64,000 nucleotides of DNA from a virus. The position numbers and the translations under genes were made by a program. Under the pieces are notes generated by a model. The model saw nothing but the letters and a program-made list of their open reading frames with translations, made no database searches and was not told where the DNA came from. Shown here one piece after another: positions 43,669 to 59,392 of the stretch. Positions within the stretch are counted from its first letter, which is position 1, and each line of letters starts with the position of its first letter. The DNA is taken from the IMG/VR virus record IMGVR_UViG_3300025849_000009. One strand, 5' to 3'.

Positions 43669-44601
43669 TTATCTTCTTTTGAATCTAGATTCATCTGAAG
43701 CAATCGTTGTATTAATATCCTCTTCTATATAAGCGTCAATTATTTTTTTAGTTTTATCTGAAATATCTTCTCCGTAATAGTCTTTATACATTTCTTTATA
43801 TACATGTCCCATAACACCAAATACTGGTCCAGGTTCTGATGACATTTCAATAACATAAGGATGATCTTTATCATCTATAACAATATCTACTGAATAAAAA
43901 TCTAAATCATTGTGTTCTTTTGAAAATTCTTCAACAACACCAACTAAATTTTCTGTTATAGGTGATTTTGATAATTCGTAATTAAATACTAGTTTATCAT
44001 CCGCTTTTTTAGATAGGTTTTTTGTTTCTTCGTTTGCAGGCACTCTATATACTAACATCAAAGGTTTTCCTTTCCAACAATAAATTCTAAGTTCATTTAC
44101 GATATTTATCTTTTCTGAGAAAACTGAAAACTGATCTAAATCAACGCCTTCTAAATCTTTTTCTTCTTTAAAAACCATAATACCTTGGCCACTATATCTG
44201 TTATCTGGTTTAGCTATAATAGGATATTTAAGTTCTTTTAAATTTGATTTATCAAAAACTACTTTAGGCGTATGTTTAGATTTTTCATGAGTCTTGCACC
44301 ATTTTACTTTAGAAGAAACTCTTTGTTTAGCTTCAATTGAATTATAAATAAATTTAGAATCCCATCCATCATTTATCATTTTCTCAATTTTCCAATTAGC
44401 ATAATTAAGAACTGGAATTTCAGAAGGTTCTGCTTTTTTATTTTTATCTAATAATTCAAATACCTTTGAGACATTATATTTAGAATCATACACATATTTA
44501 TTATCTGGCATTTCTACAGAAACCGCGATGCAGATTTTTTTAAGTTGATCAGTTTCATCAGCTTCTAAAAGAAAATCTTTAAATGTGTATATACTTCTCA
44601 T
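43669..44601 (-). CDS. ATP-grasp ligase (RimK-like) with CTS-like leader
   Basis: 'YPIIAKP...SGQGI', 'ELRIY', 'DFYSVDI......YVIEMSSEPG'; leader MRSIYTFKDFLLEA. Confidence 0.75.
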   Translation of the reverse strand: MRSIYTFKDFLLEADETDQLKKICIAVSVEMPDNKYVYDSKYNVSKVFELLDKNKKAEPSEIPVLNYANWKIEKMINDGWDSKFIYNSIEAKQRVSSKVKWCKTHEKSKHTPKVVFDKSNLKELKYPIIAKPDNRYSGQGIMVFKEEKDLEGVDLDQFSVFSEKINIVNELRIYCWKGKPLMLVYRVPANEETKNLSKKADDKLVFNYELSKSPITENLVGVVEEFSKEHNDLDFYSVDIVIDDKDHPYVIEMSSEPGPVFGVMGHVYKEMYKDYYGEDISDKTKKIIDAYIEEDINTTIASDESRFKRR

Positions 44602-44612
44602 CTAATATATAT

Positions 44613-45041
44613 CTACGAAGGAAATACTTCTATCGTTCTTTCTTCTCTAACTAGGTCTGCCCATTTACCTTCATATCTTGTACCCTTAACAATATGGTTG
44701 TCAACCCAATGATAATTACCACCTCTTGGTTTTCCCATTAATAGTCCATGATATTTAAAACCATGTTTATTTAGCCAATTTTCTGTAATCTCTCTTACGT
44801 CTTCAGTTCTTGAAGTAAAGAAAGTTACAACATGTCCTTCGTCATACCATCTATTAAGTGTTTCTACAGATCCTTCATATGGTAAAACTATTGACATTCT
44901 TTCTGGCTCTTCGTTTGGTACATCATCTGTAATTGTACCGTCAATATCAATTAAATAATTCTTAGCACCATTCTTTAAAACGGGTGATACTAAATGCCCA
45001 TCATCTCCAACGATCTCGTTAAATGTAATCTCTTTTTTCAT
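44613..45041 (-). CDS. HAD-superfamily phosphatase
   Basis: 'IDIDGTI', 'FFTSR', 'TENWL..HGFKYHGLLMGKP'. Confidence 0.8.
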   Translation of the reverse strand: MKKEITFNEIVGDDGHLVSPVLKNGAKNYLIDIDGTITDDVPNEEPERMSIVLPYEGSVETLNRWYDEGHVVTFFTSRTEDVREITENWLNKHGFKYHGLLMGKPRGGNYHWVDNHIVKGTRYEGKWADLVREERTIEVFPS

Positions 45042-45056
45042 ATTGTTTTTTATTAA

Positions 45057-46388
45057 TTATTTCTTTCTCATAAATGATACATTAATGTATCTTTTCCCAC
45101 TGTGTATTGGTCTGGCACCATGTTTATGTGTAATCATTCCTGGGTGAATGGTTGCAGTGCCCACTAATTTTGGATTTGATAATATTTTATATTTTGGAAA
45201 CCATGTACCGCCTCCATCAAACTCATCGTTTAATTTTACTACCATTGTAATATGACTAAAGTCGTGATGTAAACTTAAATGAGATTGTCTATCAGTAGTG
45301 TATCTTACCATAAAGTTTTCAGTATCCATATTGTCCCAACCTGCACCTTCTAATTCCCATAAATGTATACAAAGAGGAGAAACTATTTCTCTTACAACTC
45401 TATTATAAATATGATCTAATCCTATTTCTGGTAATAAGACATCGTTTGTTGGATAAAATTCGTGTCTGTCTTTTGTCCATTTATCCATAACTTCTGCCAA
45501 ACCTACGGCTTCTTTACAGAATTTTTCTGTAAATAATGGAAACTCATAAATATTATTTCCTATATCATCTACCATTAAATCATATTCACCCTTAGATACC
45601 GTTTCGTTTACATATTTTGATTTCCATGAATCCCAATCACTATCATCTAATATTTCGAAATATGGTTGTGTTTTCAATAAATTAATATTCGCATCATATG
45701 GTTCTGTCATAGATTGTTCATGCGGTCTATTTTGTTCTATCCAATTATCAACTGGAGCTATCGCTTTAAGTTTTGGTGGAAACAGTATATTAATATCTTG
45801 TCTTCTATGCTCTGTATATGTTGCTGTTAAGAATTCGTCGGGTGCAATTAGATTTTGTTTAAAGTTATAATCATTGACTAGTATTTTTGCAGTGTCTCTT
45901 TTAATTACATACGCGTGTGTATTATAACTACTAAGAGCTGTTACCCATTTATTACTTGCATCAATTCTTTTTTCATCCTTAGAACATATAGCATTTCTAC
46001 CTAAAAATGCAATATCCCATTCTGTATTTGGAATAACTGGATTTGTAAGCGGAGCTACTGAAACAAAATCATCTTCTAATATTAATGCACAATTGACATT
46101 GTTTTCTATTATATTGTTCCATATACTTAAGTGGCTAATTGCACAACCTGCTTCTCCACCAGTAACATCTCTTTTCCACCAATCATTCCATGAATCAGAT
46201 CCTAAATTCCATAAATCATATACACTATGTCCATCTAATAAATTACCTGAAGTTCCATCAAAACCTTGAACTATTTCCCATTCTACAGAATATGGCATAC
46301 CAAGTTGATCTACCCTGGTGGCAATGTTTCTCTGAATACTTGGATCTCCGGCATTCAAACTTATAATATAAATTTTATCTATTTTCAT
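45057..46388 (-). CDS. GT25 (procollagen galactosyltransferase-like) fused to PLOD-like 2OG-Fe(II) lysyl hydroxylase
   Basis: GT25 part: 'IYIISL', 'FDG', 'GEAGCAISH..IW', 'LILEDD', 'DEFL'. Oxygenase part: 'PTND', 'NFMVRY...Q..L.LHHD.S', 'GGGT.F', 'HPG.ITH.H......G.RYI.VSF'. Likely start M9. Confidence 0.85.
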   Translation of the reverse strand: MKIDKIYIISLNAGDPSIQRNIATRVDQLGMPYSVEWEIVQGFDGTSGNLLDGHSVYDLWNLGSDSWNDWWKRDVTGGEAGCAISHLSIWNNIIENNVNCALILEDDFVSVAPLTNPVIPNTEWDIAFLGRNAICSKDEKRIDASNKWVTALSSYNTHAYVIKRDTAKILVNDYNFKQNLIAPDEFLTATYTEHRRQDINILFPPKLKAIAPVDNWIEQNRPHEQSMTEPYDANINLLKTQPYFEILDDSDWDSWKSKYVNETVSKGEYDLMVDDIGNNIYEFPLFTEKFCKEAVGLAEVMDKWTKDRHEFYPTNDVLLPEIGLDHIYNRVVREIVSPLCIHLWELEGAGWDNMDTENFMVRYTTDRQSHLSLHHDFSHITMVVKLNDEFDGGGTWFPKYKILSNPKLVGTATIHPGMITHKHGARPIHSGKRYINVSFMRKK

Positions 46389-47404
46389 ATAGATTCTAAT
46401 ATGTTTTTCCAATCATATGATCTGGCATTCCATGTTTGTTGTTTAGACCATTTATAAGCATCATTAATTGATTTATCTTTAAGTCCACTACTTAGTGTAC
46501 CTAGTATTTGTATAACCTGATTCCAATTTGTTTCATTTCTTTCTAAGATAACTCCACTATTTACAGTCTCTTTTAATGCTGCTACCGTGGTAACAATAGG
46601 TAATACTTTGGCATATTGCATTTCAAGCGCAGTAATACAATATGTTTCTTCATAATCAGTTACATAGCACCAATATTCTGCACGTAACATTGCAGCGTGT
46701 AATGTTTCTTGATCTACTGTACCATGACACGTAACTTCTTCAAACTTATTAAATGAATAGTCAGTATGATTTGCTATAGAATAGCCTGGAGAATATATGT
46801 CTAATGTTGCATGTGGCATTATATCTTTTATCTTTGGCCAGTTTTTTAATAATTCTAATAAGCCACGTTCAGGTGCAGAACTATATATGAATTTACCTTT
46901 TATTTTTTCAGGAGTACCATTAAATGTCGAAGGATCAATGGCATTACCAATCACTGAGATTTTATTTAAAGGTATATTATATGTGTGTGCCCAATGATTC
47001 TTATGCCAGTTAGTCAAACAAATTGTATGATCAACTTGTTGTGTTAAAATGTTTGCGTCTCCTAACACTTTATGATTCCACCATGGGTGATGATGTGTAT
47101 TATGTGCCCAAAATACTTTCTTTGCTGAATACCCTTCAAACTCTTTTAGAAAATGGATATAACTTGCAGATATAATATAATCAAACTGATCAAAATATTT
47201 TTCATGAACAGTATGTGTTGATATCCATTCTACACCATCAATTAAACCAGAATCTTTTACTTCACCAGAAACCACAACCTTATAACCAAATTTAACTATC
47301 TCTTTAGCTATATTAATTATAGCAATTTCAGTTCCTGCTAATCCAATACTGGTATTGCTATCAAATTTGTTTTTTTGATAACCCGCATAAAATAATATTC
47401 TCAT
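46385..47404 (-). CDS. GT-B glycosyltransferase (GT4-like)
   Basis: 'GLAGTE', 'YSSAPERGL..LL', 'YEETYCITALE' (E-x7-E). Confidence 0.85.
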   Translation of the reverse strand: MRILFYAGYQKNKFDSNTSIGLAGTEIAIINIAKEIVKFGYKVVVSGEVKDSGLIDGVEWISTHTVHEKYFDQFDYIISASYIHFLKEFEGYSAKKVFWAHNTHHHPWWNHKVLGDANILTQQVDHTICLTNWHKNHWAHTYNIPLNKISVIGNAIDPSTFNGTPEKIKGKFIYSSAPERGLLELLKNWPKIKDIMPHATLDIYSPGYSIANHTDYSFNKFEEVTCHGTVDQETLHAAMLRAEYWCYVTDYEETYCITALEMQYAKVLPIVTTVAALKETVNSGVILERNETNWNQVIQILGTLSSGLKDKSINDAYKWSKQQTWNARSYDWKNILESI

Positions 47405-47452: not shown

Positions 47453-48364
47453 TTAGTTCTTATTTCTTTTAACTTTAGGTGGAGCGTCTATAAACCAACC
47501 CTTATAATATTCTCTTTTTTCATAGATATAATTCATGTAATCATCCACTTTGCCCTTCCAATCTTCATCAATTGCTGGATTTATAATTCCAGATTTGTAA
47601 CTAGAAAAAACCTGATTAATCCATTCTGCACCGCTTTCTTTATTATCATAAAGACTAGAGTTTATAGTATAAAAAGATCCTCTGCTTATATTATTCCACA
47701 CATCCATTGGATAAACTTCTTTTTCAAGAACAACAGAATATAATGCACTTTCACTAATGTGTGTACTATATACTGTTTTAGCTTTTTGTAAAAAGTAATA
47801 AAGATCTATGTCTCTTGGTAAAATAGATTCTTCACCAAATAAATCTTTAATTTCACCTATAACTGCATGTGTAGTAATAGGATGTGGTTTAAAATAAACA
47901 TCACCTTTATGTTTCTCAGCAACTTCAATTAATTTATTTAAACAACAATTTTCTTTAAGCTTATTTGAACCTGGTAAAATAACCAAAGTGCTTTTATCTT
48001 CATATCTGTCGAAATCTTTCTTGCGATTTTGATATTTATTAGCTTGATCTTTTTCGATATTTTCTTTAAAGTAAGATACCCAATCATAGACGTGTTCGAC
48101 ATCATGTACTAAAGCATCAGCAATTTGTTCTCTTCTCATTTTGAGATTTAGTGGTTGCATTAAAAAACAAGTAGCATATTCTGTATATCCCATTGTTTTA
48201 AAGTACGGCATTTCTTCTGCTATAACATCATAACTGTGTTCTAATCCAAGTTCTCTACATTTTCTTAAAACATATCGTTCCACTTGTTCGAGTGGTTCTA
48301 GTTTTGTATTTTTCTTTAGAGGCCCAATTCTTTCATTTAGCACCTTTTTGTTAAACATTTCCAT
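47453..48364 (-). CDS. Putative GT-B glycosyltransferase (KpsS/sialyltransferase-like HP motif)
   Basis: 'LVILPG', 'VYFKPHP', 'V.STH.SESALY..L.K.V'. Confidence 0.55.
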   Translation of the reverse strand: MEMFNKKVLNERIGPLKKNTKLEPLEQVERYVLRKCRELGLEHSYDVIAEEMPYFKTMGYTEYATCFLMQPLNLKMRREQIADALVHDVEHVYDWVSYFKENIEKDQANKYQNRKKDFDRYEDKSTLVILPGSNKLKENCCLNKLIEVAEKHKGDVYFKPHPITTHAVIGEIKDLFGEESILPRDIDLYYFLQKAKTVYSTHISESALYSVVLEKEVYPMDVWNNISRGSFYTINSSLYDNKESGAEWINQVFSSYKSGIINPAIDEDWKGKVDDYMNYIYEKREYYKGWFIDAPPKVKRNKN

Positions 48365-48438
48365 ATATAAAAAGTAATTTAATAGTTATACACAATAACA
48401 TGTGTTTGTTTAATTATTTATCTCATTTATTTTTAGAG

Positions 48439-48469
48439 CAAAAAAAAAGCATACCTAAGTATGCTTTTT
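48439..48469 (-). terminator. Intrinsic terminator after the Thr-rich gene pair
   Basis: AAGCATAC-TTAG-GTATGCTT plus T-run. Confidence 0.85.
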
Positions 48470-48487
48470 AAATTAATTGAGTTATTT

Positions 48488-51310
48488 CTAGTTACCATTA
48501 TAACTGTTTACTCTCCATTGTCTATTTGTATTATAAACATCTAGTGGTTCGTTAGTTGAATACCAAGTTTCTTGTACTTCGTAATCTGTACTCCACGTTG
48601 TAGTAATAGCACTTGTTGTAGATCTCGTTGTGTTCCACGTTGTTGTTGTGTTCCATGTGGTATTCCACGAAGTAGTAACACTATAGATAGTTGACCATAT
48701 AGTCGTTGTCGATTTAGATGTCGCTGCATTTGTATTAAATGTAGTCGTAGTTGATCTAGTCGTATTAAATGTGGTCGTAGTCGAGTGGCTTGTATTAAAT
48801 GTAGTCGTAGTCGTTTTAGACGTTGTTTGAGACGTATTAAATGTTGTCACCCATGATGTAGTCCATGAAGTTGTCGTTGACTGATTAGTATTAAACGTTG
48901 TCAACCAAGTTGTATTAAATGTAGTTATAGTTGACTTACTAGTTTGATATTGTGTAGTCCACGATGTTGTACGTGTATAGTTTGTAATTCTACTAGTTTC
49001 CCAAGTTGTTGTCCATGCAGTTGTCGTCGCATGTTCTGTTCCCCTATTAGTTCCTCTGGATGTACTCCATATAGTTACTGTCGAATGAGACGTTCCATGA
49101 TTCGTAGACTGGGACGTATTAAACGTAGTCGTAGTTGAATGCTCTGTTGACCTAGTTGTATTCCATGAAGTAGTCCATGAAGTATTGAACGTAGTTACTG
49201 TAGATTTACTTGTTGACCATGTTGTTGTAAACGTAGTCGTTGTTGAATGTTCTGTTCCTCTAGTCGTGTTCCATGAAGTTGTCCATGATGTATTGTAAAC
49301 TGTAGTCGTTGCTCTAGTCGTATTCCATGATGTGTTAAAAACTGTAGTAGTCACATGCTCTGTTCCTCTAGTCGTGTTCCATGAAGTTGTCCATGAGGTA
49401 GTATAACTCGTCGTCGTAGCTCTACTAGTTGACCATGTTGTATTAAATGTAGTTGTTGTAGATTTAGTCGTTGACTGATTAGTATTAAACGTCGTTGTCC
49501 ATGAGGTAGTATAACTCGTCGTCGTAGCTCTACTAGTTGACCACGTTGTATTAAATGTAGTTGTTGTAGATTTAGTCGTTGACTGATTAGTATTAAACGT
49601 TGTCACCCACGAAGTAGTCCACGAAGTTAACGTTGTTTTAGTTGTGTTCCATGTTGTGTTATAAACCGTAGTAGTTGACCTAGAAGTTGACTGATTTGTA
49701 TTAAAAGTAGTAGTCGTTGTTCTAGAAGTAGATCTCTTTGTATTTCGCGATGTTATCCAAGTAGTATTAAATGTTGTCGTAGTCGATTTGCTAGTTGACC
49801 ACGCTGTATTGTAAACTGTTGTTGTGGTTTTATTCGTGCCTCTGGTTGTGTTCCATGAGGTAGTCCACGAAGTAGTCCACGAAGTTAGCGTTGATTTAGT
49901 TGTGTTCCATGATGTGTTATAAACCGTAGTAGTTGACCTAGAAGTTGACTGACTTGTATTAAATGTTGTCGTAGTCGATTTACTAGTTGATCTAGTTGTA
50001 TTTCTTGATGTTGACCAGGTTGTCGTAAATGTTGTCGTAGTCGATTTACTTGTTGACTGGCTTGTATTAAAAGTTGTAGTTGTAGATTTATTAGTTCCTC
50101 TACTAGTTCCTCTTACGGTGTTCCATGAAGTTGTCCATGTAGTTACAGTGGATTTGCTAGTTGACTGACTTGTATTAAAAGTTGTCGTTGTTGCTCTAGT
50201 TGTGTTCCATGTCGTTGTAGTAGATTTACTAGTTGACCATGTTGTAGTCCAATTAGTTGTAGTAGATTTACTAGTTATAAACGTCGTTGTAGTAGATTTA
50301 CTAGTTGCAAATGTAGTAGTAGTTGAATGTTCCGTTGATCTACTAGTTATAAATGTTGTTGTAGTAGATTTAGACGTATTAAACGTAGTCGTTGTCGATT
50401 TACTAGTTGCCCATGTAGTCGTGGTTGCACGCGTTGTATTCCTATGAGTTGCAAATGTAGTTGTAGTAGATTTAGACGTATTAAACGTAGTCGTTGTTGA
50501 TTTACTAGTTGCCCACGTAGTCGTGGTTGCACGCTCCGTTGACTGACTTGTACTAAATGTAGTCGTTGTTGATTTACTAGTTGCCCATGTAGTCGTGGTT
50601 GCACGCGTTGTATTCCAAGATGTATTATATACAGTCGTTGTTGTTTTAGTTGTGTTCCACGTCGTTGTAGTTGCGCGTGATGTATTCCATGTAGTCGTGG
50701 TTGCACGCTCCGTTGACTGACTTGTACTAAATGTGGTCGTGGTTGCACGTGTTGTATTAAATGTTGTTGTGGTTGCACGTGTTGTATTCCACGAAGTAGT
50801 CCACGAAGTTAGCGTTGATTTAGTTGTATTGAACGTCGTCGTCGTAGCTCTAGTTGTATTCCAAGATGTATTGTATACGGTCGTGGTTGCACGCGTTGTG
50901 TTATACGTAGTCGTGGTTGCACGTGTTGTATTAAATGTTGTTGTTGTCGCCCTAGATGTAGATTGACTTGTATTCCACGACGTCGTAGTCGCCTTAGACG
51001 TATTCCACGTCGTCGTAGTCGCCCTAGACGTATTCCACGTCGTCGTAGTCGTCTTAGATGTACTCTTACTTGTATTATATGTCGTCGTCGTATTTTTATC
51101 TGTGAACCATGACGTCGTAACTTTAGTTGACCACCCCGTTGAAGTAGATTTATCTGTAAGTACATTCCAATAGGTAGTTTTTGCCGTATTCCTAGAAGTT
51201 GCCCTATTATATGACGTGTATAATGAAGTTGTTCGAGAATAACTAGTCGTCTTCAACGTGCTCCTAGATCCGGCGGTTAACCAAGTAGTATTAAAAAAAG
51301 TAGTAGGCAT
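48488..51310 (-). CDS. Thr/Ser-repeat fibre protein A (940 aa); antiparallel complement of protein B
   Basis: Quasi-repeat units of 10/14/18/22 aa (e.g. TTTTFNTSKS), each with aromatics first and K/R/Q/H after. Confidence 0.85.
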   Translation of the reverse strand: MPTTFFNTTWLTAGSRSTLKTTSYSRTTSLYTSYNRATSRNTAKTTYWNVLTDKSTSTGWSTKVTTSWFTDKNTTTTYNTSKSTSKTTTTTWNTSRATTTTWNTSKATTTSWNTSQSTSRATTTTFNTTRATTTTYNTTRATTTVYNTSWNTTRATTTTFNTTKSTLTSWTTSWNTTRATTTTFNTTRATTTTFSTSQSTERATTTTWNTSRATTTTWNTTKTTTTVYNTSWNTTRATTTTWATSKSTTTTFSTSQSTERATTTTWATSKSTTTTFNTSKSTTTTFATHRNTTRATTTTWATSKSTTTTFNTSKSTTTTFITSRSTEHSTTTTFATSKSTTTTFITSKSTTTNWTTTWSTSKSTTTTWNTTRATTTTFNTSQSTSKSTVTTWTTSWNTVRGTSRGTNKSTTTTFNTSQSTSKSTTTTFTTTWSTSRNTTRSTSKSTTTTFNTSQSTSRSTTTVYNTSWNTTKSTLTSWTTSWTTSWNTTRGTNKTTTTVYNTAWSTSKSTTTTFNTTWITSRNTKRSTSRTTTTTFNTNQSTSRSTTTVYNTTWNTTKTTLTSWTTSWVTTFNTNQSTTKSTTTTFNTTWSTSRATTTSYTTSWTTTFNTNQSTTKSTTTTFNTTWSTSRATTTSYTTSWTTSWNTTRGTEHVTTTVFNTSWNTTRATTTVYNTSWTTSWNTTRGTEHSTTTTFTTTWSTSKSTVTTFNTSWTTSWNTTRSTEHSTTTTFNTSQSTNHGTSHSTVTIWSTSRGTNRGTEHATTTAWTTTWETSRITNYTRTTSWTTQYQTSKSTITTFNTTWLTTFNTNQSTTTSWTTSWVTTFNTSQTTSKTTTTTFNTSHSTTTTFNTTRSTTTTFNTNAATSKSTTTIWSTIYSVTTSWNTTWNTTTTWNTTRSTTSAITTTWSTDYEVQETWYSTNEPLDVYNTNRQWRVNSYNGN

Positions 51311-51385
51311 TCTCTATCTCTGTTGTTTTTTTATATATTTAAATTCTTTAATCATTTTATTTCTTAAAAAGTCTCTTAGTACTAC

Positions 51386-54300
51386 TTACCAAGCACAATC
51401 ACGCTCAGAATAACATATAGAACGAAAATCGCAATAATCTTCTGGACTACACAGTTGTTCTTTGTTATTATGTGTTAAAATTCCATTTGCAAAGAATGTA
51501 TCATTAGGTTCTACATCTAATTTATAAACAGTATATTGATTAACTTCATCTATTTCTAAAGATTCTATCAGAAATTCTCCATAATCCATTTTAAACATAA
51601 CATCACCAATCTCTAGGTGCTCCGCTAGTTTTGCTTGCCACATACCATCTCTTTTTATAATATGTATATGTGCCATGGTAGTTCTTAATTGGTCATTATT
51701 TATGCTAACTGTTCCTATAACGTCTGCTCTCCAAATACCGGAAACATTATGTTCATTAGATAATGTATTTGTGTATACTTCTTCTTCCCTAATTGTTGGT
51801 AATACAGTCATGTCATCTGTATTAAATGCTCCATCCATAGTTAAAATACTCTGGCCATGCACTAACGTTTCAACTGGTCTTTGTATTCCTTCAGCAATAT
51901 GTACTAGTGTTCCTTCAACTATACATTCCTCTATTGTGCTTCTAGATGTTCCACGAGATGTGTTGACATACAATGCTGTATTGTAACTTGTGATATATGA
52001 AACTGATGTATTCCAGGAAGTTATTTGCCCTGCACCACCACCTGAACTATTATCTGCAGGAACTAAAGTAATCCATGTTGTTGTTTTAGTTGTTGATCTA
52101 GAATATCCTGTAGAAACCTTTGTAATAGTTGACTTACTTGTATTTCTGTCAGTTACCCTAGAAGTTGCAAACCTAGTATTAGTAGATTTACTAGTTGCAA
52201 AAGTGGTCGTGTACGTCGTTGTCGTCGATCTACTAGTTGCAAATGTCGTTGTCGTCGATCTACTAGTTGCAAATGTTGTTGTTGTATTTCTACTAGTGAT
52301 CCAGTAAGTTGTCCATGCAGTTGTCGTCGATTTACTAGTTGACCAAGTTGTTGTTGTCGATCTACTAGTTGCAAATGTCGTTGTCGTCGTATGCTCTGTG
52401 CTTCTACTAGTACTAAATGTAGTCGTTGTAGATCTACTAGTTGCAAATGTTGTTGTTGTATTTCTACTAGTTCCTCGAGTCGTACCAAAAGTGGTCGTTG
52501 TTGATTTAGTTGTGTTGAACGTCGTCGTTGTTGACCTAGTTGTATTCCAAGATGTATTGTATACAGTCGTGGTTGCACGCGTTGTGTTCCAATTAGTTGT
52601 AGTAGATTTACTAGTAGCAAATGTTGTTGTGGTAGAATGCTCTGTGCCTCTACTAGTACTAAATGTAGTCGTTGTTGATTTAGTTGTGTTCCACGTCGTC
52701 GTCGTAGCTCTAGTTGTATTCCAAGATGTATTGAACACTGTAGTTGTAGACTGACTTGTATTCCATGTAGTCGTTGTTGATCTAGTTGTATTGTATACGG
52801 TCGTTGTTGATCTAGTTGTATTCCATGTTGTTTTAAATGTAGTCGTTGTAGACTGACTTGTATTCCATGTAGTCGTTGTTGATCTAGTTGTATTATATAC
52901 GGTCGTTGTTGATTTAGTTGTATTCCAAGATGTATTGTATACAGTCGTTGTTGCTCTAGTTGTGTTCCACGTCGTCGTTGTTGATCTAGTTGTGTTCCAT
53001 CGTGTTGTTGTTGACTTACTAGTAGACTGATTTGTGTTAAATGTTGTTGTCGTCGATTTACTAGTAGCAAATGTTGTTGTGGTAGATTTACTAGTTGACC
53101 ATGTTGTATTAAACGTAGTCGTTGTGTTTTTGGACGTTGATTTGGAAGTCAACACAGTTGTGTTCCATGAAGTTGTCCATGAAGTTGTAGTAGCTCTACT
53201 AGTTGACCACGTTGTATTAAATGTAGTTGTTGTAGATTTAGTCGTTGACTGACTTGTATTAAAGGTTGTACCAAATGTGGTTGTCCATGTAGTTGTCGTC
53301 GATTTACTAGTTGACCATGTTGTATTAAACGTAGTTGTTGTCGCATGCTCTGTGCTTCTACTAGTTACAAATGTTGTTGTTGTATTTCTACTAGTTGCTC
53401 TATTAGTTCCTCGACTTGTTACCCAAGTAGTTGTCCATGCAGTTGTTGTGGTGTGCGAAGTTGATTGACTAGTATTAAACGTAGTTGTTGTAGAACGATT
53501 CGTTGATCTAGTTGTATTCCATGAAGTAGTCCAAGCTGTGTCAAAAGTAGTAGTTGTAGATTTACTTGTTGACCATGTTGTTGTAAACGTAGTCGTTGTC
53601 GAATGTTCTGTTCCTCTACTTGTTACCCATGTTGTTGTGGTATTTTTACTAGTCGCCTTAGACGTTGATTTACTAGTAGACCAAGTTGTTGTCCATGTAG
53701 TTACTGTAGATTTACTTGTTGACTGACTTGTATTAAAAGTCGTTGTCGTAGATTTAGTAGTTGACCTAGAAGTTGACTTACTAGTTGACCAAGTTGTCGT
53801 AAATGTTGTTGTTGTTGATTTACTTGTTGACTGACTTGTATTAAAAGTTGTAGTTGTCGATTTACTAGTTACTTTACTTGTTGTTTGACTAGTGATCCAA
53901 GTTGTATTATATGTCGTTGTTGTCGAACGAGATGTTGATTGACTAGTACTAAACCTGGTCGTTGTTGAATGTTCAGTGCTTCTAGAAGTTATCTGAGATG
54001 TAATCCAAGTTGTATTATATGTAGTCGTTGTTGATCTAGATGTCGACTGATTTGTGTTAAATGTTGTTGTAGTACTACGATTAGTAGATCTTGTTGTCGT
54101 TTGACTAGTGATCCACGTTGTATTATACACTGTTGTTGTAGATCTATTAGTTGACCATGACGTTGTATATGTCGTAATATAAGAAGTTGTCGTTGATTTA
54201 CTTGTATTCCAAGAAGTTGTCCAATATGTAGTGTATGATGTAGTTGTACTTCTAGATGTGGATTGACTTGTGTTCCAGGTTGTTTCAACAGGATACAATG

Positions 54301-54736
54301 TGGATTGACTAGTTGTCCAACTAGTTGTCCATGTAGTAGTTGTAGCCCTCTCAGTTGATTGTGACGTGTTTTTAGAAGTCGACCATGTTGTTGTTGTAGT
54401 TCTATCAGTTTCTAAAGATGTTTCTCTAGAAGTGCTCCATGATGTAGTCCACGATGTTGTCGTTGATCTAGAAGTTGCATATACAGTATTAGTACTACGA
54501 GATGTATTGAAAGTTGTTGTTGTCGATTTACTAGTTGCCCATGTAGTGATCCATGTTGTCACCGTGGATTGACTAGTATTTCGTACTTTGTTAGTAGTTC
54601 TCGAAGTATTTCTATTTTCAGATGTAGTTTTGGAAGTAGCCCAAGTAGTATTCTTAGCTACGAGTGTACCCTTAGATGTATTCTGTGCACTTCCGGTACT
54701 CCAAAAGTCGATTCTTGAAAATCCTATATTCTTCAT
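51386..54736 (-). CDS. Thr/Ser-repeat fibre protein B (1116 aa) with C-terminal Hint domain and Cys-rich tail
   Basis: Same repeat grammar as A with unit order reversed; Hint at aa 938-1090. Confidence 0.85.
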   Translation of the reverse strand: MKNIGFSRIDFWSTGSAQNTSKGTLVAKNTTWATSKTTSENRNTSRTTNKVRNTSQSTVTTWITTWATSKSTTTTFNTSRSTNTVYATSRSTTTSWTTSWSTSRETSLETDRTTTTTWSTSKNTSQSTERATTTTWTTSWTTSQSTLYPVETTWNTSQSTSRSTTTSYTTYWTTSWNTSKSTTTSYITTYTTSWSTNRSTTTVYNTTWITSQTTTRSTNRSTTTTFNTNQSTSRSTTTTYNTTWITSQITSRSTEHSTTTRFSTSQSTSRSTTTTYNTTWITSQTTSKVTSKSTTTTFNTSQSTSKSTTTTFTTTWSTSKSTSRSTTKSTTTTFNTSQSTSKSTVTTWTTTWSTSKSTSKATSKNTTTTWVTSRGTEHSTTTTFTTTWSTSKSTTTTFDTAWTTSWNTTRSTNRSTTTTFNTSQSTSHTTTTAWTTTWVTSRGTNRATSRNTTTTFVTSRSTEHATTTTFNTTWSTSKSTTTTWTTTFGTTFNTSQSTTKSTTTTFNTTWSTSRATTTSWTTSWNTTVLTSKSTSKNTTTTFNTTWSTSKSTTTTFATSKSTTTTFNTNQSTSKSTTTRWNTTRSTTTTWNTTRATTTVYNTSWNTTKSTTTVYNTTRSTTTTWNTSQSTTTTFKTTWNTTRSTTTVYNTTRSTTTTWNTSQSTTTVFNTSWNTTRATTTTWNTTKSTTTTFSTSRGTEHSTTTTFATSKSTTTNWNTTRATTTVYNTSWNTTRSTTTTFNTTKSTTTTFGTTRGTSRNTTTTFATSRSTTTTFSTSRSTEHTTTTTFATSRSTTTTWSTSKSTTTAWTTYWITSRNTTTTFATSRSTTTTFATSRSTTTTYTTTFATSKSTNTRFATSRVTDRNTSKSTITKVSTGYSRSTTKTTTWITLVPADNSSGGGAGQITSWNTSVSYITSYNTALYVNTSRGTSRSTIEECIVEGTLVHIAEGIQRPVETLVHGQSILTMDGAFNTDDMTVLPTIREEEVYTNTLSNEHNVSGIWRADVIGTVSINNDQLRTTMAHIHIIKRDGMWQAKLAEHLEIGDVMFKMDYGEFLIESLEIDEVNQYTVYKLDVEPNDTFFANGILTHNNKEQLCSPEDYCDFRSICYSERDCAW
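51467..51925 (-). other. Hint (intein-like/BIL) autoprocessing domain
   Basis: Block A 'CIVEGTLV', block B 'TTMAH', block F/G 'VYKLDVEPNDTFFANGILTHN'; the +1 residue is Asn, not C/S/T. Confidence 0.85.
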
Positions 54737-58180: not shown

Positions 58181-59392
58181 TTACTTATATAGATTTGTTT
58201 TCCAATCATATGTAGATCTTAGTTTATGATCCTTAATTCCCATTGTGGTTTCAATTAATTGTTTATATGTTTCTATTAAACCCTCGTTAAATACAGTATA
58301 TCTAGTTAAAACCCTTTCGCTATTTTCATTATATGCTTCTATGTTATTGTCATGATTTTCGATAGCCTGTTTAAGTTGTCGAGAACCCTGTCCAATTAAG
58401 TTACCATCATAATAATATCCGGCGTCCTTAATCATGTGTGCGTTATGTACTAGTGGAAACTGTAAATAGAGTGCGTCTAAGTATGAATAATTTAATGGAT
58501 TAGTATGTTGGTGTGCAATAACTACATCTGTTAATTGGGCCATAGCATCAATAGCTCTTAGTCTAGGGAGGTATGATAATTTATGATCTGTTGTTCCAGA
58601 TAATTTACATAATGAAAGGTGTGTTAATAAAGATTGATAATATTTGTTTTTTATAATGTCTTCACCACACATGATATTTAGTTTTTTAAATTTACCTCCT
58701 TTATTATAATAATCTTCTGCTATCAATAAATTTATAAAGTGCCATTTTTGTGTGCCAATATTGGGTTCAAAACATGCAATTTGTTTGTCTTTATTTTCTT
58801 TTCCAGGAACATACACTGGAACTGGTCTGTTTTCAATTATTGTCTTTGGATTATTATACACTTCACATGTTTTGTCTAAAAATACAGGATCCCATACAAA
58901 AGGAACGGGTCTTACTTTATTTACTGGTAAATTATGCATTACTCTATAATATTCAATATTATTTTCGCCCTGTTGTGGAACATACCACGCTTCGTCCAAT
59001 AATTGATTATATCCGGTAGCATCAGGTCCAATATTAAACATAGCACCCTCTAAATCATTCAGATAATTATTACCACAAATATATTTGACTACTTTTTTAC
59101 CATAACCTGTTTTCTTAAACTCCTCTATAGTTTTATCGCCGTAAGTTGCACCCAACCAAATCATAAGATCTGTATCTGCATACTTGTCATAGTAATCGTA
59201 TATTGGGAATTGTTCAATATCCCATGTTACTTTGTTCTCATAAGGAGCTTTGACTTCACTTGCATTTAATATGTATACATTATATCCTATTTCTTTCAAA
59301 GCTTTTAATAAATAAAGCGCATTTAGTTTTATACCATTTATCCAAAGACTTTCATTCTCTGATCCTAAACTTATAGTAATTCCTATATTCAT
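58181..59392 (-). CDS. DUF2827-like putative glycosyltransferase
   Basis: 'IGITI....SLW.NGI..N', 'CGNNY', 'VPFVWDP.FL', 'FEPNI...K', 'HQHTNPLNY.Y.DALY..FPLVHN'. Confidence 0.75.
   Translation of the reverse strand: MNIGITISLGSENESLWINGIKLNALYLLKALKEIGYNVYILNASEVKAPYENKVTWDIEQFPIYDYYDKYADTDLMIWLGATYGDKTIEEFKKTGYGKKVVKYICGNNYLNDLEGAMFNIGPDATGYNQLLDEAWYVPQQGENNIEYYRVMHNLPVNKVRPVPFVWDPVFLDKTCEVYNNPKTIIENRPVPVYVPGKENKDKQIACFEPNIGTQKWHFINLLIAEDYYNKGGKFKKLNIMCGEDIIKNKYYQSLLTHLSLCKLSGTTDHKLSYLPRLRAIDAMAQLTDVVIAHQHTNPLNYSYLDALYLQFPLVHNAHMIKDAGYYYDGNLIGQGSRQLKQAIENHDNNIEAYNENSERVLTRYTVFNEGLIETYKQLIETTMGIKDHKLRSTYDWKTNLYK

What the first reader, a model, noticed from the sequence alone, without database searches (positions are those of the whole stretch)
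51280..52080. Hint domain sits exactly at the hairpin tip and may ligate chain B to the N-terminus of chain A
SEEN: after a Gly-rich bulge in B (PADNSSGGGAG), complementarity resumes in register 938: Q904:Y34, V912:R26, Y918:K20, L922:R16, R928:W10, R932:F6. This places B-E937, the residue before the Hint catalytic Cys938, opposite A-M1/P2. B is transcribed first, then A, the order expected of a single giant hairpin that was split. The Hint ends ...THN followed by Asn rather than C/S/T, so canonical cis-splicing is unlikely. KNOWN: Hint/BIL domains form an N-terminal thioester that outside nucleophiles can attack (Hedgehog-cholesterol is the precedent). INFERENCE: the zipper could deliver A's N-terminus to that thioester and create a covalent hairpin of about 1,870 aa. 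Alternatively the Hint simply self-cleaves to mature the tip.
Basis: partly seen in the sequence, partly recalled or inferred. Interest (0 to 1): 0.82.

Follow-up and report, generated by a model that had tools for sequence, protein, structure and literature searches.

The report
Hint cap on mirror-paired phage fibre
An uncultured phage makes a very long fibre from two threonine-rich proteins that match each other residue by residue when one is read backwards, and the first chain ends in an intein-like self-processing domain placed where the second chain begins; that domain most likely cuts itself off, and covalent joining of the two chains remains possible but untested.

Summary
Chain B (51386-54736, minus) and chain A (48488-51310, minus) are antiparallel complements: register 928 gives 183 aromatic:K/R/Q/H pairs, against 99 for the next best register. 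B carries a complete Hint domain (C938...T1088-H1089-N1090, then N1091) at the end where A starts.

The "exact" register 938 is weak. In the last 39 residues it ties with register 934 at 4 pairs each, and 13% of shuffles reach that count.

The B-Hint-A arrangement recurs in at least 9 other lineages, with arms of 150 to 1040 aa. The duplex register always extrapolates to within -5 to +12 residues of the Hint Cys. Outside the window's clade, 4-16 linker residues separate the last pair from the Cys.

The Hint is an A-type bacterial intein-like (BIL) domain. It belongs to a family of more than 600 clusters that sit at the extreme C-end of many phage fibre-like proteins. The motif THN-x-K is conserved and the +1 residue is never Cys or Thr. 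The zipper-linked Hints form one clade.

Self-removal is the best-supported reading. Ligation to A's N-terminus is neither supported nor excluded. Its closest solved relative, Tetrahymena BIL2, does transfer its N-extein to amines. Single-chain fold-back versions without a Hint exist in T4-like baseplate proteins.

The scan had already noted this mirror-coded fibre on other DNA.

The parts
51926..54736 (-). Chain B, residues 1-937: conserved N-terminal motif (MKNIGF...), then the Thr-rich zipper arm
   Evidence: The N-terminal motif is shared with L005-L011 and L017.
51926..52170 (-). Degenerate tip module of B (about residues 856-937). It includes the Gly-rich bulge P893-G903 and the 5-residue linker S933-E937 before the Hint.
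   Evidence: The regular register 928 ends near B855-888. The tip fits registers 934 and 938 equally well.
51467..51925 (-). Hint (A-type BIL-like) domain, C938-N1090. Catalytic positions are C938, T1020-x-x-H1023 (block B) and H1089-N1090 (block G).
   Evidence: Weak Pfam hits to Hint_2 and Intein_splicing. 612 relatives. AF2 pLDDT 91.9. PDB profile hits 6y75 at E 2e-15 and 2lwy at E 8e-11. Foldseek hits 6y75 and 2lwy, TM 0.79-0.83. Invariant columns.
51389..51466 (-). 26-residue tail after the Hint (N1091-W1116). It has the family-wide Lys at +2 (K1092) and four Cys.
   Evidence: The Cys-rich tail is shared with L005, L006, L008 and P0010-P0012, P0014, P0016, and is absent in other zipper lineages.
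51311..51385 (-). 75-nt B-A spacer with no terminator-like hairpin. In relatives the spacer is 2-59 nt with no constant frame.
48488..51310 (-). Chain A, 940 aa, the antiparallel partner. Its N-terminus (MPTTFF..W10) lies at the Hint end of the duplex.
48444..48469 (-). Terminator-like hairpin just after A. B and A are probably one transcript.

Best explanation
B and A form a co-extensive antiparallel two-chain beta-type fibre. Aromatic residues face Lys/Arg/Gln/His, and Thr faces Thr. B is made as a precursor whose last 179 residues are an A-type bacterial intein-like (BIL/Hint) domain plus a short Cys-rich tail, joined to the zipper by a short flexible linker.

Proposed mechanism:
1. After folding, Cys938 attacks the E937 carbonyl (N-S acyl shift).
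2. The resulting thioester is resolved without involving A. It is either hydrolysed or attacked by the domain's own C-flank once Asn1090 has cyclised.
3. The bulky Hint is thereby removed, leaving B with an end roughly flush with A's N-terminus.

On this reading the Hint is a transient, self-removing cap or assembly aid for the fibre end. It would be a functional analogue of the self-cleaving intramolecular chaperone domains of tailspikes.

Shown: the domain, its catalytic residues, its position, and its conservation. Inferred: that it is active, when it fires, and what resolves the thioester.
For: - The Hint fold and catalytic set are complete.
- The family has at least 612 cluster representatives. 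In nearly all of them the domain is at the very C-end (median 6 residues follow THN) of very different fibre-like proteins (FN3, BACON and others) with Gly-rich linkers before the Cys. 103 stretches in IMG/VR viral contigs encode relatives. The module therefore works without an A-type partner.
- The +1 residue is never Cys or Thr. Lys at +2 occurs in 99 of 141, and 33 proteins end exactly at x-K, so the chemistry looks self-contained.
- Published work says BIL domains lack the +1 nucleophile and give mainly cleaved products (PMC7664689).
- All 20 zipper-linked Hints form one clade (support 0.90), and all those examined whole keep the first Cys and all keep the last Asn. The domain is therefore integral to the system.
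- Linkers of 4-16 residues precede the Cys in other lineages, which argues against a residue-exact docking requirement.
Against: - No biochemical data exist for any member of this family.
- Strict conservation of the terminal Asn and the +2 Lys is not needed for simple N-terminal cleavage. It hints at a transfer step.
- The closest solved relative, BIL2, conjugates its N-extein to Lys amines of other proteins (PMC8616854).
- A simple cleavable cap does not explain why the split B/A arrangement with a Hint is kept in every two-chain lineage, while T4-like relatives make the hairpin as one chain without a Hint.
Confidence: 0.55

Rival explanations
1. Trans-ligation. The zipper brings A's free N-terminal alpha-amine (Pro2 after Met removal) to the E937-Cys938 thioester. 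Aminolysis then makes a peptide bond and yields a covalent hairpin of about 1,876 residues.
For: - The Hint junction and A's N-terminus are at the same end in all 10 pairs, with the extrapolated register within -5 to +12 residues of the Cys.
- Arm lengths covary: 937/940, 971/974, 1026/1042, 890/909, 413/410, 830/865 and 166/148.
- Residue 2 of A is always P, A, S or G in 9 lineages, against 35% of ORFs in the window. The Met is therefore removable and the amine exposed.
- A one-chain fold-back form exists in DLP6-type baseplate proteins, so a covalent hairpin is a viable end state.
- BIL2 of Tetrahymena conjugates to amines in trans (PMC8616854). A C. thermocellum BIL ligates without nucleophilic side chains (Aranko 2013, cited in PMC7664689).
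- The zipper-clade Hints share clade-specific residues F971, N972, D1063 and P1077.
Against: - The family is generic and mostly lacks any A-type partner.
- No conserved C/S/T or Lys lies near A's N-terminus.
- The N-terminus is Pro in this clade, a hindered secondary amine.
- Register 938 is not separable from 934.
- Linkers vary from 4 to 16 residues.
- A fused ORF would reach the same product more simply, yet no fused Hint-less relative of A longer than 1645 aa was found. This is weak evidence.
Confidence: 0.12
2. Cis-splicing by aminolysis, as proposed for A-type BILs. Asn1090 cyclises, and the freed amine of N1091 (or the epsilon-amine of K1092) attacks the thioester. Mature B then ends in the 26-residue Cys-rich tail, and only the Hint is discarded.
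For: - The terminal H-N is nearly invariant (H about 90%, N 100% of 52 sequences).
- Lys at +2 occurs in 99 of 141, and minimal x-K tails are common.
- The closest solved domains are A-type BILs.
- Ligation without nucleophilic side chains has been reported for 2lwy (title cited in PMC7664689).
- The Cys-rich tail is conserved in several zipper lineages, as if it were kept in the product.
Against: - BILs give mostly cleavage products (PMC7664689).
- Many zipper lineages have only 3-8 unconserved tail residues.
- This has not been tested here.
Confidence: 0.18
3. Transfer to another acceptor. The thioester couples B's C-terminus to a Lys, hydroxyl or sugar of another virion protein, or of the host surface. 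This would anchor the fibre covalently.
For: - Precedents are BIL2 (isopeptide to various substrates, PMC8616854) and Hedgehog-cholesterol (PMC7664689).
- Glycosyltransferase genes surround the locus.
Against: - No candidate acceptor was identified.
- Hint thioesters usually resolve soon after folding.
- This is purely inferential.
Confidence: 0.1
4. The Hint is not processed and stays on as a globular knob or oligomerisation domain at the fibre end.
For: The Cys-rich tail and clade-specific surface residues could serve binding.
Against: Cys1, block-B T..H and terminal H-N are conserved across the family. That is the signature of selection for catalysis.
Confidence: 0.05

Closest known systems
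BIL2 domain of the Tetrahymena thermophila BUBL1 locus (PDB 6y75, 6tmm)
   Same: Best sequence-profile match (E 2e-15) and best Foldseek match (TM 0.79 by target). It has Cys1 and a terminal H-N, and the +1 residue is not a nucleophile. It is reported to join its N-extein to Lys amines of other proteins without ATP (PMC8616854).
   Different: BIL2 sits between two ubiquitin-like domains of a eukaryote, and its flanks are Ubl domains. Here the domain ends a phage fibre protein and is followed only by a 26-aa tail. Identity is 16-17%. There is no evidence of conjugation here.
A-type bacterial intein-like domain of Clostridium thermocellum (PDB 2lwy)
   Same: Profile E 8e-11 and TM 0.83 by target. 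It lacks the +1 nucleophile and mainly cleaves, though it can ligate (PMC7664689 and its reference 16).
   Different: It comes from a secreted bacterial protein. The THN-x-K end and the extreme C-terminal placement on phage fibres are specific to the family found here.
Hedgehog C-terminal autoprocessing domain (1at0, 6tyy)
   Same: Same fold, found at lower rank. It is a C-terminal Hint that forms a thioester resolved by an outside nucleophile.
   Different: Hedgehog has a sterol-recognition region and no terminal H-N. This domain keeps H-N and has no such region.
Intramolecular chaperone auto-cleavage (ICA, Peptidase_S74) domains of phage tailspikes and fibres
   Same: It is a C-terminal domain of phage fibre proteins that helps assembly and then cuts itself off (PMC3742443, PMC8326128). 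This is the working analogy for my best explanation.
   Different: The fold and chemistry are unrelated (a Ser-Lys dyad in a trimer). There is no Pfam match here.
C-terminal Thr-rich region of the 'baseplate wedge subunit' of Stenotrophomonas phage vB_SmaS-DLP_6 (KU682439.2) and relatives
   Same: Same Thr-rich aromatic/basic grammar. It is antiparallel self-complementary in one register, with 39 of 65 aromatics paired and 69 T:T pairs.
   Different: It is one chain that folds back on itself at a loop of roughly 14 residues (about 968-981). It has no Hint and no second gene, and its arms are about 300 aa. No structure is solved, and AF2 gave no usable model.

Membership tests
Hint superfamily / A-type bacterial intein-like (BIL) domain | Nucleophilic Cys/Ser as first residue (block A) | tested here: met
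   C938. At least 90% conserved in the 52-sequence alignment.
Hint superfamily / A-type bacterial intein-like (BIL) domain | Block B T-x-x-H motif | tested here: met
   T1020 and H1023. The His is invariant in A1 and A4.
Hint superfamily / A-type bacterial intein-like (BIL) domain | C-terminal His-Asn (block G), as in A-type BILs | tested here: met
   H1089-N1090. The Asn is invariant.
Hint superfamily / A-type bacterial intein-like (BIL) domain | No nucleophilic residue at +1 | tested here: met
   N1091 in the window. In 141 relatives +1 is never C or T, and is S in 4.
Hint superfamily / A-type bacterial intein-like (BIL) domain | Hint fold | tested here: met
   AF2 pLDDT 91.9. Foldseek probability 1.00 to 6y75, 2lwy and many inteins.
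Hint superfamily / A-type bacterial intein-like (BIL) domain | Autoprocessing activity (N- and/or C-terminal cleavage) | not testable with these tools
   Needs expression of wild type against C938A and N1090A.
Canonical class 1 intein | Cys/Ser/Thr at +1 and a functional C-extein that is re-joined | tested here: not met
   +1 is Asn. Only 26 residues follow, and in relatives often only 2-8.
Hedgehog-type Hog domain | Sterol-recognition region after the Hint, and no terminal H-N | tested here: not met
   The terminal H-N is present. The tail is a short Cys-rich peptide. Hedgehog structures rank below BILs and inteins.
Tailspike ICA domain (Peptidase_S74) | Sequence or fold match to the ICA domain | tested here: not met
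   No Pfam hit. The fold is Hint.
Mirror-coded two-chain Thr-rich fibre (B-Hint-A module seen in this scan) | Two adjacent genes, antiparallel aromatic:basic complementarity in one register, and a Hint at the C-end of the first gene | tested here: met
   Window: 183 pairs against 99. Also L005, L006, L008, L009, L010, L011, L012, L017 and L004.

The most novel reading that the evidence does not exclude
The BIL domain at the end of chain B uses its thioester to join B's last residue (E937) to the N-terminal amine of chain A. This would close a 1,876-residue covalent hairpin after the two arms have zipped. It would be a natural, template-directed protein-protein ligation in a virus, and a two-gene route to the fold-back fibre that T4-like phages encode as a single chain.
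Probability: 0.12. Interest if true: 0.9.

Novelty: new variant of a known kind. Interest (0 to 1): 0.62.

Why it matters
Three points make this worth following up.
- The Hint/BIL family defined here has more than 600 cluster representatives. Relatives are common in viral metagenome contigs, I found none among cultured phage records, and I found no paper describing it. It looks like a widespread, unstudied way for phages to process the ends of their fibres.
- Its strict THN-x-K end suggests chemistry beyond plain cleavage.
- In the mirror-coded fibre it sits at the one place where a covalent closure would turn two chains into the hairpin that other phages encode directly.

A simple co-expression experiment can therefore test whether nature uses an intein-like domain for templated protein ligation. 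If it does, this would be a new tool-like reaction and a new principle of fibre assembly. If it does not, it is a new class of self-removing fibre cap.

Tried and rejected
- **DNA-level explanation.** No inverted repeat underlies the mirror pattern, so it is a protein-level feature.
- **Complex prediction.** B760-1116 with A1-170, using my own 7-row alignments, returned no verdict (score 0.00). It says nothing either way.
- **AF2 of the DLP6-type fold-back region.** Residues 785-1165 with 9 sequences gave pLDDT 26, which is unusable.
- **Fused forms of A longer than 1645 aa.** None was found. The tool itself calls this weak evidence.
- **Single-protein pattern scan for the Hint in IMG/VR.** It found nothing. 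The alignment-based scan succeeded.
- **Scan for B genes by the N-terminal motif.** It recovered only the same six Hint-bearing contigs, so no Hint-less two-chain form was found. Sensitivity was low.
- **Nearest held virus record (G001, 24 kb).** It does not cover this locus.
- **blastn of neighbouring genes against cultured phages.** No match.
- **tblastn of the Hint against cultured phages.** It hit only an unrelated intein-like stretch in a Vibrio phage NTPase.
- **PDB sequence searches with A and with the DLP6 protein.** Nothing found.
- **Programmed read-through or frameshift fusing B to A.** Rejected. The B-A spacer is 2-75 nt with no constant frame among lineages.
- **A split intein with its C-half in A.** Rejected. 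The Hint in B is complete through block G.
Full report
**1. What is there**

The stretch 51280-52080 covers the last ~50 residues of the zipper arm of chain B, the whole Hint domain and tail of B, the 75-nt spacer, and the first ten codons of chain A.
- B is 51386-54736 (minus strand, 1116 aa).
- A is 48488-51310 (minus strand, 940 aa).
- The window is a low-GC myovirus-like phage. Nearby are a Baseplate_J gene, collagen-like fibre genes, glycosyltransferases (GT4, GT25 fused to a 2OG oxygenase, DUF2827) and an ATP-grasp gene.
- A terminator-like hairpin follows A. None lies between B and A.

**2. The zipper is real**

Both proteins are Thr/Ser-rich. Aromatic or K/R/Q/H residues occur only at even spacings of 4 and 6.
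- Pairing B residue i with A residue 928-i gives 183 aromatic:K/R/Q/H pairs out of 208 aromatics. The next register gives 99, and the best parallel alignment gives 56.
- Register 928 is best or tied in every 40-residue window from B31 to B880.
- The code is specific: F pairs with K/R; W with K/R/Q; Y with H/K; E with N; T with T, 303 times.
- There is no DNA inverted repeat.
I re-tested them here.

**3. The tip**

The regular register fades after about B855-888.
- Only R932:F6, R928:W10 and Y918:K20 obey the body code.
- Register 934 gives four equally good pairs: R928:F6, Y918:R16, Y914:K20 and W908:R26.
- Four pairs are reached by 13% of shuffles.
- Gapped alignment prefers a 6-residue and then a 4-residue bulge.
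- In the close relatives L005, L006 and L002, register 938 (delta 0) scores 4, 5 and 4, against 3, 4 and 3 for 934. It is slightly better, but not decisively.
- E937 opposite M1 is therefore possible but not established. Under register 934, B overhangs A by four residues.

**4. The Hint**

*Fold and catalytic residues.*
- Cut out, the domain gives weak Pfam hits at both ends (Hint_2, Intein_splicing).
- An exhaustive search found 612 cluster representatives at E<=1e-3.
- With a 52-sequence alignment, AF2 gives pLDDT 91.9.
- The profile's best PDB hits are BIL2 of Tetrahymena BUBL1 (6y75/6tmm, E 2e-15) and the C. thermocellum BIL (2lwy, E 8e-11). Foldseek ranks the same entries first, ahead of inteins and Hedgehog.
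- C938, T1020..H1023 and H1089-N1090 are conserved.

*Family-wide end.*
- The domain is almost always at the extreme C-end. A median of 6 residues follow THN.
- The +1 residue is never C or T.
- Lys at +2 occurs in 99 of 141, and 33 proteins stop right after x-K.
- The carriers are very diverse fibre-like proteins (FN3, BACON and other repeats) with Gly-rich linkers before the Cys.
- 103 stretches in IMG/VR viral contigs encode relatives. tblastn against the cultured-phage collection found none apart from an unrelated intein-like stretch.

This is an A-type BIL-like domain and a generic C-terminal module of uncultured-phage fibres.

**5. Conservation of B-Hint-A**

The pair recurs in IMG/VR loci L005, L006/L007, L008, L009, L010, L011, L012 and L017, and in metagenome contigs L002-L004.
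- The arm lengths of B (before the Cys) and A covary over a six-fold range, with L017 (224/476) as the exception:

| Pair | B before Cys (aa) | A (aa) |
|---|---|---|
| Window | 937 | 940 |
| L005, L006 | 971 | 974 |
| L008 | 1026 | 1042 |
| L009 | 890 | 909 |
| L010 | 413 | 410 |
| L012 | 830 | 865 |
| L011 | 166 | 148 |
| L017 | 224 | 476 |

- The best whole-chain register always extrapolates to within -5 to +12 residues of the Hint Cys. The ends are therefore flush and the Hint is always at A's N-terminal end.
- Outside the window's clade, an acidic or Gly-rich linker of about 4-16 residues separates the last code-like pair from the Cys. The residue-exact apposition is not a family feature.
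- A always has P, A, S or G at position 2 in 9 lineages. The background in this window's ORFs is 35%.
- In a tree of 116 Hint domains, all 20 zipper-linked ones form a single clade (support 0.90). That clade has a few clade-specific residues: F971, N972, D1063 and P1077.
- The Hint was therefore acquired once and kept through all diversification of the two-chain fibre.

**6. One-chain relatives**

Searching with B's arm hit ~1290-aa 'baseplate wedge subunit' proteins of T4-like phages, for example Stenotrophomonas phage DLP6 (KU682439.2).
- Their C-terminal ~600 residues use the same grammar and are self-complementary in one antiparallel register. In the DLP6 protein, 39 of 65 aromatics are paired, against 20 for the second-best register (mean 4.3, sd 3.3). 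There are 69 T:T pairs.
- They turn at about residues 968-981.
- The same pattern holds in five homologues.
- They have no Hint.
It shows that a covalent hairpin is a natural form of this fibre type. It does not show that B and A become one.

**7. Mechanism**

What is shown: a catalytically complete BIL domain at the A-proximal end of B, integral to the system.

What is known from the literature:
- BILs lack the +1 nucleophile and mostly cleave (PMC7664689).
- One BIL ligates without nucleophilic side chains (Aranko 2013, cited there).
- BIL2 forms isopeptide bonds to Lys of other proteins (PMC8616854).

My ranking:

| Reading | Probability |
|---|---|
| Self-removal by hydrolysis, a transient assembly cap functionally like the ICA domains of tailspikes (PMC3742443, PMC8326128) | 0.55 |
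| Cis-aminolysis onto its own tail | 0.18 |
| Ligation to A's N-terminus | 0.12 |
| Transfer to another acceptor | 0.10 |
| No processing | 0.05 |

- For ligation: the topology, exposed small N-termini, tight gene coupling, the one-chain relatives and the BIL2 precedent.
- Against ligation: the generic nature of the module, its self-contained THN-x-K end, Pro as A's N-terminus here, variable linkers, and the fact that a fused ORF would be simpler.

**8. What failed**

The complex prediction gave no verdict. The fold of the one-chain hairpin was unusable. No solved structure matches the arms.

**9. Verdict**

The Hint at the fibre end is real, conserved, and a new variant of a known domain kind. 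The ligation idea is a legitimate, cheaply testable hypothesis with low prior.

Noticed in passing
P0163 residues ~700-1288 (Stenotrophomonas phage vB_SmaS-DLP_6, KU682439.2:153354-155270); also P0160-P0162, P0165, P0171: T4-like 'baseplate wedge subunit' proteins end in a Thr-rich region of about 600 aa that is antiparallel self-complementary in a single register. In P0163, register i+j=1949 pairs 39 of 65 aromatics, against 20 for the next register. This is a one-chain fold-back version of the mirror-coded fibre, in a cultured phage.
   Followed up: partly
window 51461-51466 (N1091-K1092) and 141 relatives: Across the Hint family the residue two places after the terminal Asn is Lys in 99 of 141 representatives. 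33 proteins end exactly at x-K. This is a strongly conserved feature with no explanation in the literature I searched.
   Followed up: partly
window 51389-51466: The 26-residue tail after the Hint has four Cys in a conserved spacing (C-x-P-E-D-Y-C ... C ... C). The pattern is shared with several but not all zipper lineages. It may be a small metal- or disulfide-stabilised knob.
   Followed up: no
window 51305-51310 and A genes of L002-L012, L017: The second residue of chain A is always P, A, S or G in 9 lineages. The background in this window's ORFs is 35%. The start Met is therefore probably removed and a small N-terminal residue exposed.
   Followed up: partly
L014, L015, L016, L022, L025, L026 (IMG/VR): Another clade of Hint-capped, non-Thr-rich proteins is always followed 62 nt downstream by a conserved 351-aa protein starting M-S-S-S-N. 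A partner gene directly after a Hint-capped gene may therefore be a wider pattern.
   Followed up: no
window 48000-54000: GC skew is positive (+0.08 to +0.22) across the A and B genes, while the rest of the window is negative. AT skew is also most negative here. This is a compositional effect of the ACN/AGN-rich Thr/Ser coding.
   Followed up: no
window 43669-47404 and 58181-59392: An ATP-grasp gene, a HAD phosphatase, a GT25 fused to a 2OG oxygenase, a GT4 and a DUF2827 gene bracket the Thr-rich and collagen-like fibre genes. This suggests that the fibres are glycosylated.
   Followed up: no
L017 (IMG/VR 3300006616_000032): In this short pair, chain A (476 aa) is twice as long as B's arm (224 aa), and the Hint starts C-V-A-S-N instead of C-x-V-E-G. 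It is an outlier to the equal-length rule.
   Followed up: no
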